DNA from: Escherichia coli
Lineage (GTDB): Bacteria; Pseudomonadota; Gammaproteobacteria; Enterobacterales; Enterobacteriaceae
NCBI RefSeq assembly: GCF_024298765.1
Contig: NZ_CP101210.1
Direction: 5' to 3' (one strand)
DNA length: 64,000 nucleotides
Part shown: positions 58,301-64,000 of the stretch, in pieces
Layout of the letters: the number at the start of each line of letters is the position of its first letter
Position numbering within the stretch: the stretch's first letter is position 1
Made by a program: the position numbers

Positions 58301-61300
58301 ATTGGCTGAATGGTGCACTGAGATATCTGTTCGACAATTGTCACCCTGATCAACCGGTGGATGCCGGGGCTTATCTGTCCTATCTGGAGAGTCAGGCTCG
58401 CCGCTTTGTCTTCCAGCGCTTTTTAGCGCCTGGTGAAGGGGCTTCCTATTACCAGATGCTCTACCTTGATAACGCCCTGTTGCCCGCCATCAATGTGGAT
58501 GAGAGTTGGCACAAGGTGATTACATCCAAACTTCGCTTCGGTCATATCGAGAACAACTTTGTCTTCAACTTCCTCGACTATCTGCTGTGGGTACGAGATC
58601 GGAATAGCGACAAAGTTGCTGGCTCCTTTGAGTTCACTTTCCGCAGCTCGGTGGAGCACTTCTCACCCCAGCATCCGATGGATGGCTATAAACCGGTTGA
58701 GCAGAGTGCACTCCATTCGTTTGGCAACCTTTGCCTTATCAGCCACAGCAAGAACTCGCGCTTGAGTAACTTCCAGCCGCAACAGAAGCAGGAGCACTTT
58801 GAAGCAAGCCTTGCCAATAACCAGACTGATAGTCTTAAATTGCTTGCTATGATTCGGCTGATGAAAGATAAAGGTCGTTGGCTGGAAGATGAGATAGCTG
58901 TGCATCAACAAGATATGTTGCAGGTCTTACTATCCAATCAAATTCAGCAATAACGGATTGAATCTGTTGGTGATGCTGCCAACTTACTGATTTAGTGTAT
59001 GATGGTGTTTTTGAGGTGCTCCAGTGGCTTCTGTTTCTATCAGCTGTCCCTCCTGTTCAGCTACTGACGGGGTGGTGCGTAACGGCAAAAGCACTGCCGG
59101 ACATCAGCGCTATCTCTGCTCTCATTGCCGTAAAACATGGCAACTACAGTTCACTTACACCGCCTCTCAGCCCGGTACGCACCAGAAAATCATTGATATG
59201 GCCATGAATGGCGTTGGATGCCGGGCAACCGCCCGCATTATGGGCGTTGGCCTCAACACGATTTTCCGCCATTTAAAAAACTCAGGCCGCAGTCGGTAAC
59301 CTCGCGCATACAGCCGGGCAGTGACGTCATCGTCTGCGCTGAAATGGACGAACAGTGGGGCTACGTAGGTGCTAAATCACGTCAGCGCTGGCTGTTTTAC
59401 GCGTATGACAGGATACGGAGGACGGTTGTGGCGCACGTCTTCGGTGAACGCACTCTGGCCACACTGGAGCGTCTTCTGAGCCTGCTGTCGGCCTTTGAGG
59501 TCGTGGTATGGATGACGGATGGCTGGCCGCTTTATGAATCACGCCTGAAGGGAGAACTGCACGTTATCAGCAAGCGATTTACGCAGCGCATTGAGCAGCA
59601 TAACCTGAATCTGAGGCAGCATCTGGCAAGGCTGGGCAGGAAGTCACTGTCGTTCTCAAAATCGGTGGAGCTGCATGACAAAGTCATCGGGCATTATCTG
59701 AACATAAAACACTATCAGTAAGTTGGAGTCATTACCCAGCTCATCGCGCAGTGAGCCAAAATCCGCATCTGAAGCACGGTCAAAAAGGTAATCCAGTTTG
59801 CGATTTACGTCGCTCAGCTGGTTGGTAACTATTTTCAACCCGGACTCCAGATCACCTGGGCCAGCTTCAAGGCAGCGCCGCAGATACTCTGACCGATTAC
59901 CACCTGAAACCAGGTCTATATAGGCCAAAAGTTCATCTGATACTTTTGCGGTTATTGTTGGCATCCAGTCCTCACTTTGTGCATTTTTTAAACGAAAAAA
60001 GGGTGTCTAATACGGTGAAATCATAGTATTACCAAAGTAATAAATAAAAATTGTTTTAAATCAGTAGGTTAGATTAGATTTGTAATGCCTGGGTAATACC
60101 GCAGCATGGCTAAATTTGGTTTTTTTTCTTTTAAATCAGTTGGATAGCGTGATTTATCACGCTGCGTTAGGTGTATAGCAGGTTAAGGGATAAAAAATCA
60201 TCTTTTTTTGGTAGGGCGATCTCCGTAGGTTAAGGGTCATTTGGCTAAAAAGCGTCCTATTCTTTGATGGTCATGCTTGCATGACCATCTGAGCAACCAA
60301 AAACTACAGATAAACTACAGATAAACTACAAAAAACGTTTTGCCTTAGTATTGGAAGACTACAAATAGACTACAATAAAACTACAAAGAAACTACAAAAA
60401 ACATGACAGACTACAAATAGACTACAAGAATACTACAGATAAACTACAAAACTCGATTGACCCCTTCTTACGAGTGTTGTAGAGTCATTTTCATACAACG
60501 GAGGGGGTTATGAATAAACCAGCAGATCTGAAACCCCGCAACTTATCGGCTGCTGTCAGATTGCGCCTAAATGAAATCGAGAACTGGCTGGACAGAGGGC
60601 TAACGCGGCATGAAATTGCTGAAATCCTCGACAGCGAATACAGCTTTTCGGTAACAGCCAAAGGGCTTGAGATGGCACTGTATAGAACGCGGCAAAACCG
60701 AAAAAATGTATTGCACAATACACATGATAAGAGTAGCGCGAAGGGTGCAGCGGAAAGTGTATTGCACAATACACAACCGTCTGAGCCTGAAGCGCAGGAA
60801 AGTGAAAAAGCAGAGAGTCCCGGCATTATTGATAAAGAATTCTTCAATAAAATCGGTGAGAATTTCGACCCTAAGAAGTTCAACAAAAAATTCTGAGGTG
60901 ATTTATGAAAGTAGCGGTAATTAATTACAGTGGCAGTGTTCGTAAAACCTTAATTTCATCTTACCTGTTAGCTCCGCGCCTGACTGGTGCAAAGTTCTAT
61001 GCGGTAGAGACTATCAACCAGTCTGCTTCCGATCTGGGTATTGAAAATGTGACCAGTTTTAAAGGTGACGACTTCTCACGTTTGATTGAGGGGTAATGAC
61101 TCCAACTTACTGGTAGTGTTTTAGCGAAGTTAAGTGACACAATAGTTTAATCTGGAGGAATTAATGAAGAGTTATGAGTAATTTTAATTTTCTAACAGAC
61201 ATCAGCCCTGAACTCGCTCAATTTGGTAAAAGTGCCGAGCTGTATTACCATGATGATAAGCAGGTAGCACTAGTGAAACTTAGGTGTTTTACTGAAGTAG

Positions 61301-64000
61301 TCGTTGGGGAAATTTATTCACGTTTATCGCTAACCCCACCTGTTCGTGATGATTTATATAATCGACTGCGCAGCTACGAATTCAAGGACGTTGTCAGTGA
61401 TAAGGGAATCTGGGCCAAATTAGATGTATTGCGACATAAAGGTAACAAAGCCGCCCACTCTAGCAATGGTTCAGACGAGATTTCCCTCAATGAAACACTC
61501 TGGTTAATCAAAGAAGCTTATTTAGTCGCCCGTTGGTATGCTCAAGCTATTCTCAATAAGCCTATCACTCCGCCAGAGTTTGTTGATCCGGTAAAACCTA
61601 TCGATCATACATCTCGCTTAGAAGCAGAGTTAGAACGGCAACGTCAAGAACTCAATAAACGAGAGGCTGAATTAAAGACCCAGCTTGCTGATAATAGTGA
61701 TAAATATCAACAACAGACGAGTGAGCTAATAGCTCAACTAGACGAAAAAAACGACACACTTTCCAATGTAAAAAAAGAGCAAGCACTATTACAGATTGAA
61801 CTTGAACAAAAACAAAAAGATCTAGTCGCTTCACAACAAGCCTTCTTTGATTACAGGACGCGTGAAGAGTTTAAACAAGCTAGTATTTCATCAGCTTCAA
61901 GCTTTGATCTTGATATGGAAGTGACGCGCCGAAATATTGATATATTTGATTGCTTTGAAGGAGTAAGTTTAACTAAAGGTCAAAACCAAATAGTTAAGCA
62001 AATAAATGAGTTTCTAACCGATACCAAACAAAACGTATTTTTACTTAATGGTTATGCAGGTACAGGTAAAACATTTATAACTAAAGGAATTACTCAGTAC
62101 CTAGAAAGAATTGGTCGTGAATTCGCTATTATGGCCCCGACGGGGAAAGCCGCGAAAGTGATATCAGACAAAACAATGCAACCTGCCAGCACTATTCACC
62201 GCGTGATATACAATTACGACAACGTGAAAGAGTACAAAGTTGACGGTGTGGAAGGGTCTGAAACTTATCGTTGCTATGCTGACCTTAAAGTCAATGTAGA
62301 TACTGCCGAAGCTGTTTATATAATTGATGAAGCGTCAATGGTTTCTGACAGATATTCCGATGGTGAGTTTTTTCGTTTTGGGAGCGGATATTTATTAAAA
62401 GACTTGCTCAAGTACATAAATATTGACCACAACGATCATAATAAGAAAGTTATTTTTATTGGTGATAATGCACAGTTGCCACCTGTTGGAATGAATACGT
62501 CACCAGCGCTAGATGCCAGTTACCTTAAAGAAAATTATCAAGTCGCTGTGGCTTCAGGGCACTTGACTGAAGTTGTTCGTCAAAAAGGTGATAGTGGTGT
62601 TTTGAACAATGCTGCCATGTTGCGTGACGGTTTAGAGCAAAATCTTTTCAATAAACTGAAATTTGAAGTTAATGATCATGATGTATTTAATTTGTCCTCG
62701 GAAAATCTACTTAGCACTTATCTAGACTCATGTGATAGAAAAGTTAGCCGTACAGGAGAAAGTATTATTATTGCTTCTTCAAACCGACAAGTAGCTGAGT
62801 ATAACCGTTTGGTTAGAGAGTACTTCTTTACTGGTCAACAGCAAATGGTCGCGGGAGATAAAGTCATTTCGGTAGCAAATCACTATCGAGCAGACGCTTG
62901 TATTACCAATGGTGAATTTGGAATGATCAAGGAAGTACTATCTCCTCATTCTGAGTTGATTAGTGTTGACATTAGCGTCAAAGGTGACACTGGTGACATG
63001 GTTAAGCGAAAAGTAAATCTGAGTTTTAGGGATGTGATTCTAGGCTTTCGCAACGACTACGGTGAACCATTCTTCTTTGAAGCCAAAATTGTAGAAAACC
63101 TACTTTACAATGATCAGCCGACCTTATCGTCAGATGAGCACAAAGCACTCTATGTTCACTTTTTAAATCGACACCCAGAACTGAGACGTAAAGGTAATGA
63201 ACAAAAGCTTAGAATTGCATTATTGCAAGATCCTTATTTCAATGCTTTTAAACTTAAGTTTGGTTATTCCATTACTGGACACAAAGCACAGGGTAGCGAA
63301 TGGAAAACTGTTTTCTTACAGTGTCAAACACACCAAAAAGCCTTAACTAAAGATTACTTCCGCTGGTTATACACCGCTATAACGAGAACTTCTGGCATCC
63401 TGTATGTAATGAATCCACCTCAGTTGCGCTTAGGAGATGGAATGAAAATAGCAGGAGCGTACCAACCCAAAGCAGTAAACCTAGACAATTCTGCTCCTGA
63501 AGGCGTTGAGGTTGTGCGACCAAGTACCGAAGCAACGAACTCAGTAGCCACAGCGAAGTTTGATTTTCAGACTGACATCCCGCAACTTAAAAAGCTATAC
63601 CAACTTGTTGATGCATGTATTGAAGGTACAGGGATTACTGTAGTGGATGTCCTTCATTATAACTATCAAGATCGTTACATCTTGCAGCGCGGGAATGAGC
63701 AGGCTTCGATAAGTTTCAATTACAAGGGTAACTGGAAAGTGTCTGGCGTAAAGAGCATTACTCAAGATGGGTTCGATGTTGAACTCATGGCTTTGCTTGG
63801 TCAATTAGAAGGTACTTTGCTCGATGTACCTGAGCCTTCAAAGGATACTCAGTTCCATTTTTCAGAGCCATTCTTAGAAGAGTTTTATCTAAATGTAATG
63901 GATCAAATCAACAGTGTTGGAGCTGATATAAGCAAAATTGAATCTCGTTCATTTTGTGAAAGATATGCATTTGTTAAAGGCAATGAGTTGGCGGTAATTG

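What the first reader, a model, noticed from the sequence alone, without database searches (positions are those of the whole stretch)
61174..64000. Large DUF4145-like / coiled-coil / RecD-like helicase gene in a low-GC segment next to an iteron array
An uninterrupted frame of more than 940 codons running off the window end combines an N-terminal domain resembling DUF4145, a roughly 70-residue coiled coil (LEAELERQRQELNKREAELKTQLADN...), and a RecD/TraA-type SF1 helicase core (GYAGTGKTF, IIDEASMV, GDNAQLPPV, GHKAQGSEWKTV, YTAITR), followed by further C-terminal sequence. The low GC indicates foreign origin. This could be a defense-type helicase or the helicase of an integrated plasmid/ICE-like element; which, and what the missing C-terminus encodes, cannot be told from this window.
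Basis: partly seen in the sequence, partly recalled or inferred. Interest (0 to 1): 0.6.

Follow-up and report, generated by a model that had tools for sequence, protein, structure and literature searches.

The report
Helicase half of a TOTE defence cassette
The long open frame is the first gene of a two-gene "TOTE" (PADLOC PDC-M16) candidate anti-phage cassette that insertion sequences carried from a marine-type bacterium into enterobacterial plasmids and this E. coli chromosome; the family is already catalogued but, in the literature searched, untested.

Summary
An unbroken frame of 942 codons runs off the window at 39% GC. It has a DUF4145 N-terminus, a long helical hairpin and an intact SF1B (Dda/RecD2/Pif1-like) helicase core. 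A near-identical E. coli record completes the gene (979 aa). The "further C-terminal sequence" is two TBP-TOTE (TATA-binding-like) domains. A 474-aa TPR + S1/CSD (OB) gene overlaps the stop by 4 nt. Both proteins match PADLOC candidate PDC-M16 end to end (1348 and 833 bits), and the Pfam domains define Aravind's TOTE (TPR, OB, TBP, Effector) conflict systems. The pair was adjacent in all seven non-enteric loci examined, most of them in integrase or defence islands; in a Shewanella plasmid it sits inside a type I R-M operon. The E. coli cassette still carries hsdS' and hrgA' stubs from such a slot and is bounded by an IS1 end remnant and IS903B. The "iterons" are 11 ACTACA repeats at 11-bp spacing upstream of stbA, part of an IncN-type traK'-oriT-stbA-stbB' fragment. 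They are StbA-type sites, not replication iterons, and their link to the helicase is an IS-made accident. It is not a relaxase or housekeeping RecD. The family is already known but untested in the literature searched; interest is modest.

The parts
59024..59736 (+). IS1-family element forming the left boundary of the plasmid-derived block. The end coordinate is my reading of the terminal inverted repeat.
   Evidence: Annotated IS1 family transposase at L001 14025-14722, which is window 59024-59721. The terminal repeat was read from the sequence.
59737..59964 (-). 5' part of a traK-like ribbon-helix-helix gene, cut by the IS1. Not part of the TOTE cassette.
   Evidence: The ORF at 59656-59964 on the minus strand has an N-terminal RHH-type match (MazE-like, E 2e-4). 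In an IncN plasmid the gene divergent from stbA is annotated traK.
60301..60451 (+). These are StbA-type (stbDR-like) sites in the oriT/stbA promoter region.
   Evidence: The analogy is to R388 stbDRs, which are two sets of five 9-bp repeats spaced by 2 bp around the stbABC promoter and are bound by StbA (PMC3098194).
60457..60485 (+). Promoter-like site TTGACC-17-TAGAGT upstream of stbA. It is the only candidate promoter upstream of the helicase in this mosaic. Weak evidence.
   Evidence: L001 15458-15486. The scan found fewer sites than in shuffled sequence, so this is a consensus match only.
60510..60896 (+). stbA, a plasmid partition/transfer regulator of the IncN type.
   Evidence: NCBIfam StbA_2, 205.7 bits against a cut-off of 100. 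RefSeq annotation.
60905..61096 (+). Truncated stbB: 63 codons, matching residues 1-61 of the 233-residue StbB model.
   Evidence: NCBIfam StbB, profile positions 1-61 of 233, 78 bits.
61091..61123 (+). Remnant of an IS1 terminal inverted repeat that ends the stb fragment.
   Evidence: One mismatch over about 33 bases against the end of the intact IS1 at 59700-59736.
61131..61173 (+). Leader of about 42 nt that travels with the cassette. It is homologous to the 3' end of hsdS in the Shewanella locus.
   Evidence: Alignment of the window with the Salmonella IncHI2 plasmid and the Shewanella LC6 plasmid. Identity with the Salmonella copy begins at about 61131.
61174..64000 (+). TOTE-A / PDC-M16A gene: first 942 of 979 codons. 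The remaining 37 codons and the partner gene lie beyond the window.
61231..61512 (+). DUF4145 (HEPN-superfamily) domain, aa 20-113, with the motif R87-x2-G90-N91-x3-H95.
   Evidence: Pfam E 1.5e-5. The motif is at least 95% conserved in 114 homologs. It is the family consensus in 148 DUF4145 proteins of other architectures. HEPN assignment is from PMC3710099.
61609..61899 (+). Long helical hairpin (coiled-coil-like), aa 146-242.
   Evidence: AlphaFold2 helices 146-191 and 197-242, pLDDT 50-67.
61969..63408 (+). SF1B helicase core (Dda/RecD2/Pif1-like), aa 266-745, with all motifs intact.
   Evidence: Pfam AAA_30, AAA_19, PIF1 and UvrD_C_2. Foldseek: T4 Dda 3upu E 9.8e-24 with TM 0.72, then RecD2 and Pif1. 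Motif conservation.
63580..63804 (+). TBP-TOTE domain 1, aa 803-877.
   Evidence: Pfam PF22721, E 2.6e-19. The model shows helix, four strands, helix.
63865..64000 (+). TBP-TOTE domain 2, aa 898-972, cut by the window end at aa 942.
   Evidence: Pfam E 2.8e-19 on the completed protein. Internal duplication with domain 1, BLASTP E 3e-7.

Best explanation
The frame is gene A of a two-gene TOTE (TPR, OB, TBP, Effector) conflict cassette, the same thing as PADLOC candidate PDC-M16.

Shown: Protein A (979 aa) consists of a DUF4145/HEPN domain, a helical hairpin, an SF1B Dda/RecD2-like helicase and two tandem TATA-binding-like domains. Gene B overlaps A's stop codon by 4 nt and encodes a TPR solenoid followed by two S1/cold-shock-type OB barrels. 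The cassette was cut out of a slot inside a type I restriction-modification operon of a low-GC marine-type gammaproteobacterium; hsdS' and hrgA' stubs remain. It was joined by IS1 to a traK'-oriT-stbA-stbB' fragment of an IncN-type plasmid, capped by IS903B, and spread almost clonally among enterobacterial plasmids and chromosomes.

Inferred mechanism: B and the TBP pseudo-dimer of A act as nucleic-acid sensors. The OB domains would bind single strands. The TBP-like saddle would bind duplex DNA or an RNA:DNA hybrid of an invading phage or plasmid. The TPR array would hold A and B together. On sensing, the 5'-3' SF1B motor loads on invader single-stranded DNA. The HEPN domains, paired through the helical hairpin, then cleave RNA, blocking invader replication or causing abortive infection.

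In this particular mosaic, expression probably reads through from the StbA-controlled stbA promoter.
For: Domain content: Pfam gives DUF4145, AAA_30/PIF1/UvrD_C_2 and two TBP-TOTE domains on A, and DUF7017 + S1CSD-TOTE-2 on B. PADLOC gives PDC-M16A at 1348 bits over aa 2-975 and PDC-M16B at 833 bits over aa 1-469.

Structure: model A has pLDDT 79.7 and its core matches T4 Dda, RecD2 and Pif1. Model B has pLDDT 92.2 and shows an alpha-solenoid plus two beta-barrels, with TPR matches in the PDB.

Catalytic residues: Walker A/B, the other SF1 motifs and the HEPN R/N/H residues are conserved in 114 homologs.

Operon: the 4-nt overlap and adjacency hold in Vibrio, Pseudomonas, Shewanella, Psychromonas, Aeromonas and Photobacterium genomes and in a Shewanella plasmid.

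Context: neighbours include BREX PglZ/BrxL/GmrSD, HepT-MNT, YprA-like DEAD/MZB helicases, SNF2+Eco57I genes and integrases. In Shewanella LC6 the pair sits between hsdS and hrgA-hsdR.

Cassette boundaries.

Literature: TOTE is defined as TPR, OB, TBP, Effector (PMC12458937 citing Aravind et al. 2022). PDCs were derived by 'guilt-by-embedding' in type I RM, BREX and DISARM systems (bioRxiv 10.1101/2024.01.29.577857). DUF4145 is a HEPN family already known to be fused to UvrD/RecD-type helicases (PMC3710099).
Against: No experimental test of TOTE or PDC-M16 was found. Defence is therefore inferred from context and domains only.

The TATA-binding-like fold rests on the Pfam family name and on predicted secondary-structure topology. 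A profile of the C-terminal region found no PDB sequence match, and I could not crop the model for a separate fold search.

The DUF4145 motif spacing (R-x7-H) is longer than the canonical HEPN Rx4-6H, so RNase activity is not assured.

The hairpin has low model confidence.

One locus (Aeromonas) sits between formate dehydrogenase genes, not in a defence island.

Plasmid carriage would also fit an addiction role.

The promoter assignment is a weak consensus match.
Confidence: 0.75

Rival explanations
1. It is a plasmid transfer or maintenance helicase (TraI/TrwC/TraA-like) that works with the adjacent oriT-stbA module and its repeats.
For: It lies 3' of traK'-oriT-stbA-stbB' and may be co-transcribed with stbA. 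It is frequent on plasmids: 57 PLSDB records.
Against: There is no relaxase domain; TraA_Ti scores 33.9 bits against a cut-off of 590. The junction to stbB' is an IS1 end remnant. An intact IncN plasmid has stbB-stbC there and no such gene. The Salmonella IncHI2 copy and all non-enteric homologs lack stbA and the repeats.
Confidence: 0.03
2. It is a housekeeping RecD/RecD2-type repair helicase.
For: Its best NCBIfam similarity is to RecD2 and RecD, and the fold matches RecD2 and RecBCD chain D.
Against: Scores are far below the equivalog cut-offs: 147 against 500 for RecD2, and 61.7 against 310 for RecD. It has extra HEPN and TBP domains. There are no recB/recC neighbours. It is present in only 53 of 5426 E. 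coli genomes, is IS-flanked, and has 39% GC.
Confidence: 0.02
3. It is an accessory of type I restriction-modification that needs the surrounding Hsd proteins, for example as an alternative motor or effector recruited to HsdMS.
For: In Shewanella LC6 it is embedded between hsdS and hrgA-hsdR. The E. coli cassette keeps hsdS' and hrgA' stubs. The N-terminal 256 aa resemble the N-terminus of the PRK11448 class of HsdR (E 2.4e-28).
Against: Most loci have no adjacent hsd genes. The enterobacterial copies spread without them. The HsdR proteins next to it in Shewanella, in the window and in the Klebsiella plasmid do not share the N-terminal module.
Confidence: 0.05
4. It is mainly an addiction (toxin-antitoxin-like) module that stabilises plasmids and islands, with the HEPN-helicase as toxin and the TPR-OB protein as its restraint, rather than a sensor of invaders.
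For: HEPN domains are common TA toxins (PMC3710099). The genes overlap. The cassette is carried on many plasmids and sits beside other stability genes.
Against: The proteins are very large and have a multi-domain, sensor-like architecture. The pair is embedded in R-M, BREX and DISARM-like loci, which is typical of defence genes. Truncated or IS-disrupted copies persist in some genomes, so loss is tolerated.
Confidence: 0.1

Closest known systems
TOTE conflict systems (TPR, OB, TBP, Effector; Aravind, Iyer & Burroughs 2022, as cited in PMC12458937), with Pfam TBP-TOTE PF22721, S1CSD-TOTE PF22707/PF22708 and DUF7017
   Same: All four named components are present: a TPR + S1/CSD OB protein, two TBP-TOTE domains, and effector domains (HEPN and SF1B helicase) in a two-gene operon.
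   Different: Nothing distinguishes it from the family as defined. In this subfamily the TBP domains are fused to the effector protein. Only S1CSD-TOTE-2 is detected by Pfam; the first barrel is seen only in the model.
PADLOC phage defence candidate PDC-M16 (guilt-by-embedding candidates, bioRxiv 10.1101/2024.01.29.577857)
   Same: A matches PDLC04472 over 2-975 of 979 aa (1348 bits). B matches PDLC04480 over 1-469 of 474 aa (833 bits). A 90.6%-identical copy is embedded in a type I R-M operon, which is the criterion used to nominate PDCs.
   Different: None at the sequence level. Some PDC-M16A sub-models (721 and 691 positions) start at about aa 256-265 of this protein, so they lack the HEPN-hairpin module that this one has.
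SF1B helicases Dda (phage T4), RecD2 and Pif1
   Same: Same motor fold and motifs, including the SH3-like insertion.
   Different: It has about 260 extra N-terminal residues (HEPN + hairpin) and about 200 extra C-terminal residues (two TBP-like domains). It has an obligate TPR-OB partner. It falls below the RecD and RecD2 family cut-offs.
[quoted passage not shown]
   Same: It shares the TPR-CSD and TBP components.
   Different: TALON uses a YprA-family (SF2) helicase with an inactivated RNase H domain plus a NERD nuclease, and is largely confined to Chloroflexota. Here the helicase is SF1B with a HEPN domain, in Gammaproteobacteria.
R388/IncN stbABC partition-transfer module with stbDR repeats (PMC3098194)
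   Same: This applies to the upstream 'iterons' only: an array with 11-bp periodicity around the stbA promoter next to oriT, with stbA and stbB following.
   Different: The repeat core is ACTACA rather than TTGCATCAT, and there are 3+4+4 copies rather than 5+5. stbB is truncated and stbC is lost. StbA binding was not tested here. The module is functionally unrelated to the helicase.

Membership tests
TOTE conflict system | A TPR-repeat protein carrying S1/cold-shock-type OB domain(s) | tested here: met
   Partner gene: DUF7017 (E 6.4e-40) and S1CSD-TOTE-2 (E 8.8e-18). The model shows an alpha-solenoid at 1-332 plus two beta-barrels at 335-399 and 408-468, pLDDT 92. Foldseek matches TPR proteins.
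TOTE conflict system | TATA-binding-protein-like domain(s) | tested here: met
   Two PF22721 TBP-TOTE matches, E 2.6e-19 and 2.8e-19. Internal repeat, E 3e-7. Each repeat is modelled as helix, four strands, helix. The fold itself was not independently confirmed against solved TBPs (one search found nothing).
TOTE conflict system | An effector domain in the same operon | tested here: met
   The DUF4145/HEPN motif and the complete SF1B helicase motifs are conserved. Enzymatic activity was not tested.
TOTE conflict system | Conserved operonic linkage of the components | tested here: met
   The 4-nt overlap is seen here. The pair was adjacent or overlapping in all 7 non-enteric loci inspected.
TOTE conflict system | Acts against invading genetic elements | not testable with these tools
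   Only contextual evidence is available (defence and integrase islands, R-M embedding). No experimental paper was found.
PADLOC PDC-M16 | Adjacent genes matching the PDC-M16A and PDC-M16B models | tested here: met
   1348 and 833 bits, both near full length.
HEPN superfamily (DUF4145 family) | All-alpha domain with a conserved Arg...His catalytic motif | tested here: inconclusive
   The Pfam DUF4145 match is modest (E 1.5e-5). The model is all-alpha over aa 12-127. R87, N91 and H95 match the family consensus R-x2-G-N-x-A-A-H in 148 relatives. However, the spacing is R-x7-H, not Rx4-6H, and RNase activity is untested.
RecD (RecBCD subunit) / RecD2 | Score above the NCBIfam equivalog cut-off, and a recBC or core-genome context | tested here: not met
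   TIGR01447 scores 61.7 against 310, and TIGR01448 scores 147 against 500. The gene is accessory, in 53 of 5426 genomes.
Conjugative relaxase-helicase (TraI/TrwC/TraA_Ti) | An N-terminal relaxase (HUH) domain fused to the SF1 helicase | tested here: not met
   There is no relaxase Pfam domain. TIGR02768 scores 33.9 against 590. The N-terminus is DUF4145.
Replication iterons | Direct repeats adjacent to, and bound by, a Rep initiator at an origin | tested here: not met
   There is no rep gene beside the array. The flanking genes are traK' and stbA.
StbA-binding repeats (stbDR-like) | An array with 11-bp periodicity around the stbA promoter next to oriT, bound by StbA | tested here: inconclusive
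   Periodicity, position and the neighbouring stbA gene fit. Binding was not tested, and the repeat sequence differs from that of R388.

The most novel reading that the evidence does not exclude
The tandem TBP-like domains of protein A, working with the OB domains of the TPR partner, directly sense an invader nucleic-acid structure (bent duplex DNA or an RNA:DNA hybrid) and license a HEPN RNase coupled to a 5'-3' DNA motor. That sensing mode has not been demonstrated for any bacterial immune system. In this enterobacterial mosaic, the cassette has additionally come under the StbA-regulated stbA promoter, which would tie its expression to plasmid partition and transfer control.
Probability: 0.2. 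Interest if true: 0.6.

Novelty: already known. Interest (0 to 1): 0.3.

Why it matters
The family is already catalogued, both in Pfam (TOTE domains) and in PADLOC (PDC-M16), so the locus adds no new kind of system. Its practical value is that it is a complete, apparently intact TOTE cassette native to E. coli and Klebsiella. It is carried on clinical plasmids and in about 1% of complete E. coli genomes, so the untested TOTE hypothesis could be examined directly in E. coli with standard phage panels and conjugation assays. The mosaic also gives a clean example of a defence cassette being lifted out of a type I R-M 'embedding' slot and spread by IS1 and IS903B among multidrug-resistance plasmids and chromosomes.

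Tried and rejected
- **Local HsdR proteins.** I tested whether the HsdR next to the cassette in Shewanella, the HsdR in the window, or the HsdR on a Klebsiella plasmid shares the DUF4145-hairpin N-terminus. None does.
- **TBP fold by sequence.** A profile of the C-terminal region (alignment A6) against all PDB sequences gave no match at E up to 10. The partner protein also has no PDB sequence relative.
- **Fold search of the whole model.** Foldseek with the full model A returned only helicases. 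The tools cannot crop a model, so the HEPN and TBP parts were not searched separately.
- **Phage genomes.** No DNA match in the phage collection.
- **RNA families.** No Rfam family in 59000-64000.
- **Literature.** Searches for PDC-M16, TOTE, TPR-CSD and DUF4145+helicase found no experimental work. The Aravind 2022 review is not held.
- **HEPN motif.** I suspected the canonical HEPN 'RN' arginine had been replaced by G90. Comparison with 148 DUF4145 relatives showed R-x2-G-N-x3-H is the family norm.
- **Window source.** I assumed the whole window was collinear with NZ_ABACVG020000001.1. It is not upstream of about 31665. Positions 45000-64000 differ at only 6 of 19001 bases.

Full report
**Observation.** Window 61174-64000 is open for 942 codons and runs off the window end. 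No ORF of comparable size competes on either strand. GC is 0.39, against 0.484 for the whole window. The quoted helicase motifs are present.

**Completing the gene.** Window 60000-64000 is 100% identical to the chromosome of E. coli 2020CK-00188 (NZ_ABACVG020000001.1). Window 45000-64000 differs from that record at 6 of 19001 positions. Upstream of about 31665 the window comes from a somewhat different strain. In that record the gene is 979 codons long and is annotated 'AAA family ATPase' (WP_089069417.1). Its stop overlaps by 4 nt the start of a 474-codon 'tetratricopeptide repeat protein' gene, which is followed by IS903B. All 42 E. coli records that cover at least 80% of the pair are at least 99.7% identical. 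The downstream sequence can therefore be taken as that of the window's source.

**Anatomy of protein A.**
- Pfam on the completed protein gives DUF4145 (aa 20-113), AAA_30/AAA_19/PIF1 (266-494), a weak RecD-type SH3 domain, UvrD_C_2 (697-745), and two full TBP-TOTE domains at 803-877 and 898-972, each with E about 3e-19.
- The two C-terminal domains are an internal duplication (E 3e-7).
- The AlphaFold2 model (48-sequence alignment, pLDDT 79.7) shows an all-alpha N-terminal domain, then two long helices (146-191 and 197-242) forming a low-confidence hairpin, then the helicase core. A disordered linker (769-794) follows, and then two repeats of helix, four strands, helix.
- Foldseek places the core with T4 Dda (E 9.8e-24, TM 0.72), RecD2 and Pif1, so it is an SF1B helicase.
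- Across 114 full-length homologs, the Walker A, Ia, Walker B, III, IV, V and VI motifs are at least 95% conserved. So are R87, G90, N91 and H95 of the N-terminal domain.
- DUF4145 is a HEPN-superfamily family, and fusions of it to UvrD/RecD-type helicases were already listed in 2013 (PMC3710099).
- A search of 1.84 billion representative proteins with aa 1-135 found 456 clusters. In standalone proteins, in proteins of 1100-1176 aa and in helicase-fused proteins alike, the motif is R-x2-G-N-x-A-A-H. Protein A has the family's consensus, although the spacing is longer than the canonical Rx4-6H.

**Protein B.** Pfam gives DUF7017 (E 6e-40) and S1CSD-TOTE-2 (E 9e-18). The model (pLDDT 92.2) is an alpha-solenoid (1-332) followed by two beta-barrels (335-399 and 408-468). 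The second barrel carries a KGFGFV cold-shock-type motif. Foldseek returns only generic TPR proteins, and no PDB sequence relative exists.

**Identity of the system.** Against PADLOC-DB, A matches PDC-M16A over aa 2-975 (1348 bits) and B matches PDC-M16B over aa 1-469 (833 bits). TPR, OB (S1/CSD), TBP and an effector are the four components of the TOTE conflict systems of Aravind, Iyer and Burroughs 2022, as described in PMC12458937. PDC systems are candidates nominated because they are found embedded inside type I R-M, BREX or DISARM operons. They were added to PADLOC for future testing and were not themselves validated (bioRxiv 10.1101/2024.01.29.577857). I found no experimental paper on TOTE or PDC-M16.

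**Conservation and context.** About 1600 database clusters match A, with full-length relatives at 40-97% identity. The closest non-enteric ones are in Vibrio, Psychromonas and Shewanella, with more distant ones in Aeromonas, Photobacterium and Pseudomonas. B has a parallel family. In every locus I opened, the two genes are adjacent and overlapping:
- Vibrio chaetopteri: beside a YprA-like DEAD/MZB giant helicase.
- Pseudomonas veronii: beside PglZ, BrxL and GmrSD in an integrase island.
- Shewanella: integrase island with HepT-MNT.
- Psychromonas: a large gene with an integrase domain lies nearby.
- Photobacterium: beside SNF2, Eco57I-type and DEAD/MZB genes.
- Aeromonas: a bare two-gene insertion among formate dehydrogenase genes.
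- Shewanella LC6 plasmid, at 90.6% DNA identity: the pair lies between hsdS and hrgA-hsdR of a type I R-M operon.

**How it came to lie next to the 'iterons'.**
- The repeats are 11 ACTACA cores spaced 11 bp apart in three blocks at 60301-60451. They sit just upstream of a promoter-like site and of stbA (NCBIfam StbA_2, 206 bits).
- stbA is followed by a 63-codon ORF that is the first 61 residues of StbB.
- Divergent from stbA is the 5' end of a ribbon-helix-helix gene cut by IS1.
- In an intact IncN plasmid the same region reads traK, oriT region, stbA, stbB, stbC.
- In R388, StbA binds two sets of five 9-bp repeats spaced by 2 bp around the stb promoter (PMC3098194). The array is therefore best read as StbA sites, not replication iterons.
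- Immediately after the truncated stbB is a remnant of an IS1 terminal repeat, about 33 nt with one mismatch to the intact IS1 at 59024-59736.
- Identity with a Salmonella IncHI2 plasmid copy, which has no stbA, begins only about 42 nt before the helicase start. Those 42 nt correspond to the 3' end of hsdS in the Shewanella locus.
- After gene B come about 32 codons of the hrgA-like gene and then the IS903B end.
- The cassette is thus hsdS'-A-B-hrgA', excised from an R-M-embedded slot and stitched by IS elements to a plasmid fragment.
- The same IS1-stbA-stbB'-A-B-IS5/IS903B block is found on IncFIA and IncY plasmids and in chromosomes.

**Distribution.** The pair is in 53 of 5426 complete E. 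coli genomes, with 29 chromosomal and 24 plasmid copies. It is on 57 PLSDB plasmids of Klebsiella, Escherichia, Enterobacter and Salmonella, nearly all at least 99.7% identical. It was not found in the phage genome collection. Some copies are interrupted by IS elements.

**Mechanism: what is shown and what is inferred.**
- Shown: the domain composition, conserved catalytic residues, translational coupling, and mobile or defence-type context.
- Inferred from what these folds do elsewhere: the OB domains and the TBP-like pair would recognise invader nucleic acid. The TPR array would mediate the A-B contact. The SF1B motor would translocate 5'-3' on single-stranded DNA. The HEPN domains, which in other systems act as dimers, could be paired by the helical hairpin to cleave RNA.
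- In this mosaic, the only promoter-like site upstream is the one at stbA. Read-through from a StbA-controlled promoter is therefore plausible but weakly supported.

**Rivals.**
- A transfer helicase is excluded by the absence of a relaxase domain and by the IS-made junction.
- A housekeeping RecD is excluded by sub-threshold family scores and by 1% prevalence.
- Dependence on neighbouring Hsd proteins is unlikely, because most loci lack them.
- A primarily addictive role cannot be excluded without experiments.

**Verdict.** The 'defence helicase' reading is supported and can be made precise: TOTE / PDC-M16, gene A. The plasmid-helicase reading and the iteron link are rejected. The family is already catalogued, so novelty is low. 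The remaining interest is that TOTE is, in the literature searched, experimentally untouched, and this copy is native to E. coli.

Noticed in passing
window 55464-56918 and 56911-58953 (+): Two overlapping DUF262 genes sit immediately upstream of the IS1 that bounds the stb-TOTE block. Their N-terminal regions match PADLOC HEC-06, Orf5, SspE and type IV methyl-directed restriction models, so they look like a GmrSD-like type IV restriction candidate pair.
   Followed up: partly
window about 35790-41807 (+): A type I R-M operon (hsdM-hsdS-hsdR) lies in a 41-44% GC segment. Its HsdR does not share the DUF4145 N-terminus of the helicase.
   Followed up: partly
window 60703-60724 and 60754-60775: A 22-bp direct repeat (21 of 22 identical) lies inside the stbA coding sequence. 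Each copy contains the palindrome TGTATTGCACAATACA. It could be an internal duplication or a binding site; purpose unknown.
   Followed up: no
window 62419-62448 (aa 416-425 of the helicase): An insert N-x-DHNDH-x-KK lies between helicase motifs II and III. It is at least 90% conserved across 48-114 homologs and has no assigned function. It might be a metal- or partner-binding loop.
   Followed up: no
window 61091-61123; L001 about 20592-20690 (beyond the window): Rearrangement scars: an IS1 terminal-repeat remnant after the truncated stbB, and about 32 codons of an hrgA-like gene between the TPR gene and IS903B. They record that the cassette came out of a type I R-M operon.
   Followed up: yes
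L001 22284-25979 (beyond the window, toward tRNA-Thr next to proA): The surrounding chromosomal island carries inovirus-Gp2-type, YfjI, DUF3987 and HTH genes. The Pseudomonas and Shewanella TOTE loci have similar island genes (AlpA, YagK/YfjJ; DUF3987 in the Shewanella locus only). This suggests the same class of integrative element often hosts TOTE.
   Followed up: no
protein-level, aa 1-135 of the helicase: The DUF4145 module with the R-x2-G-N-x-A-A-H motif occurs standalone (120-300 aa), on proteins of 1100-1176 aa (the PRK11448 HsdR model, 1123 positions, matches this N-terminus) and on helicases of 850-1000 aa. It forms 456 clusters at E no greater than 1e-3, so it is a shuffled effector or regulatory module.
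   Followed up: partly
window 1-31665: The window is not collinear with the best-matching record upstream of about 31665. There is a 96.5%-identical segment and rearrangements around the Ag43/CbtA-CbeA island, so the window's source is a related but different E. coli strain.
   Followed up: partly
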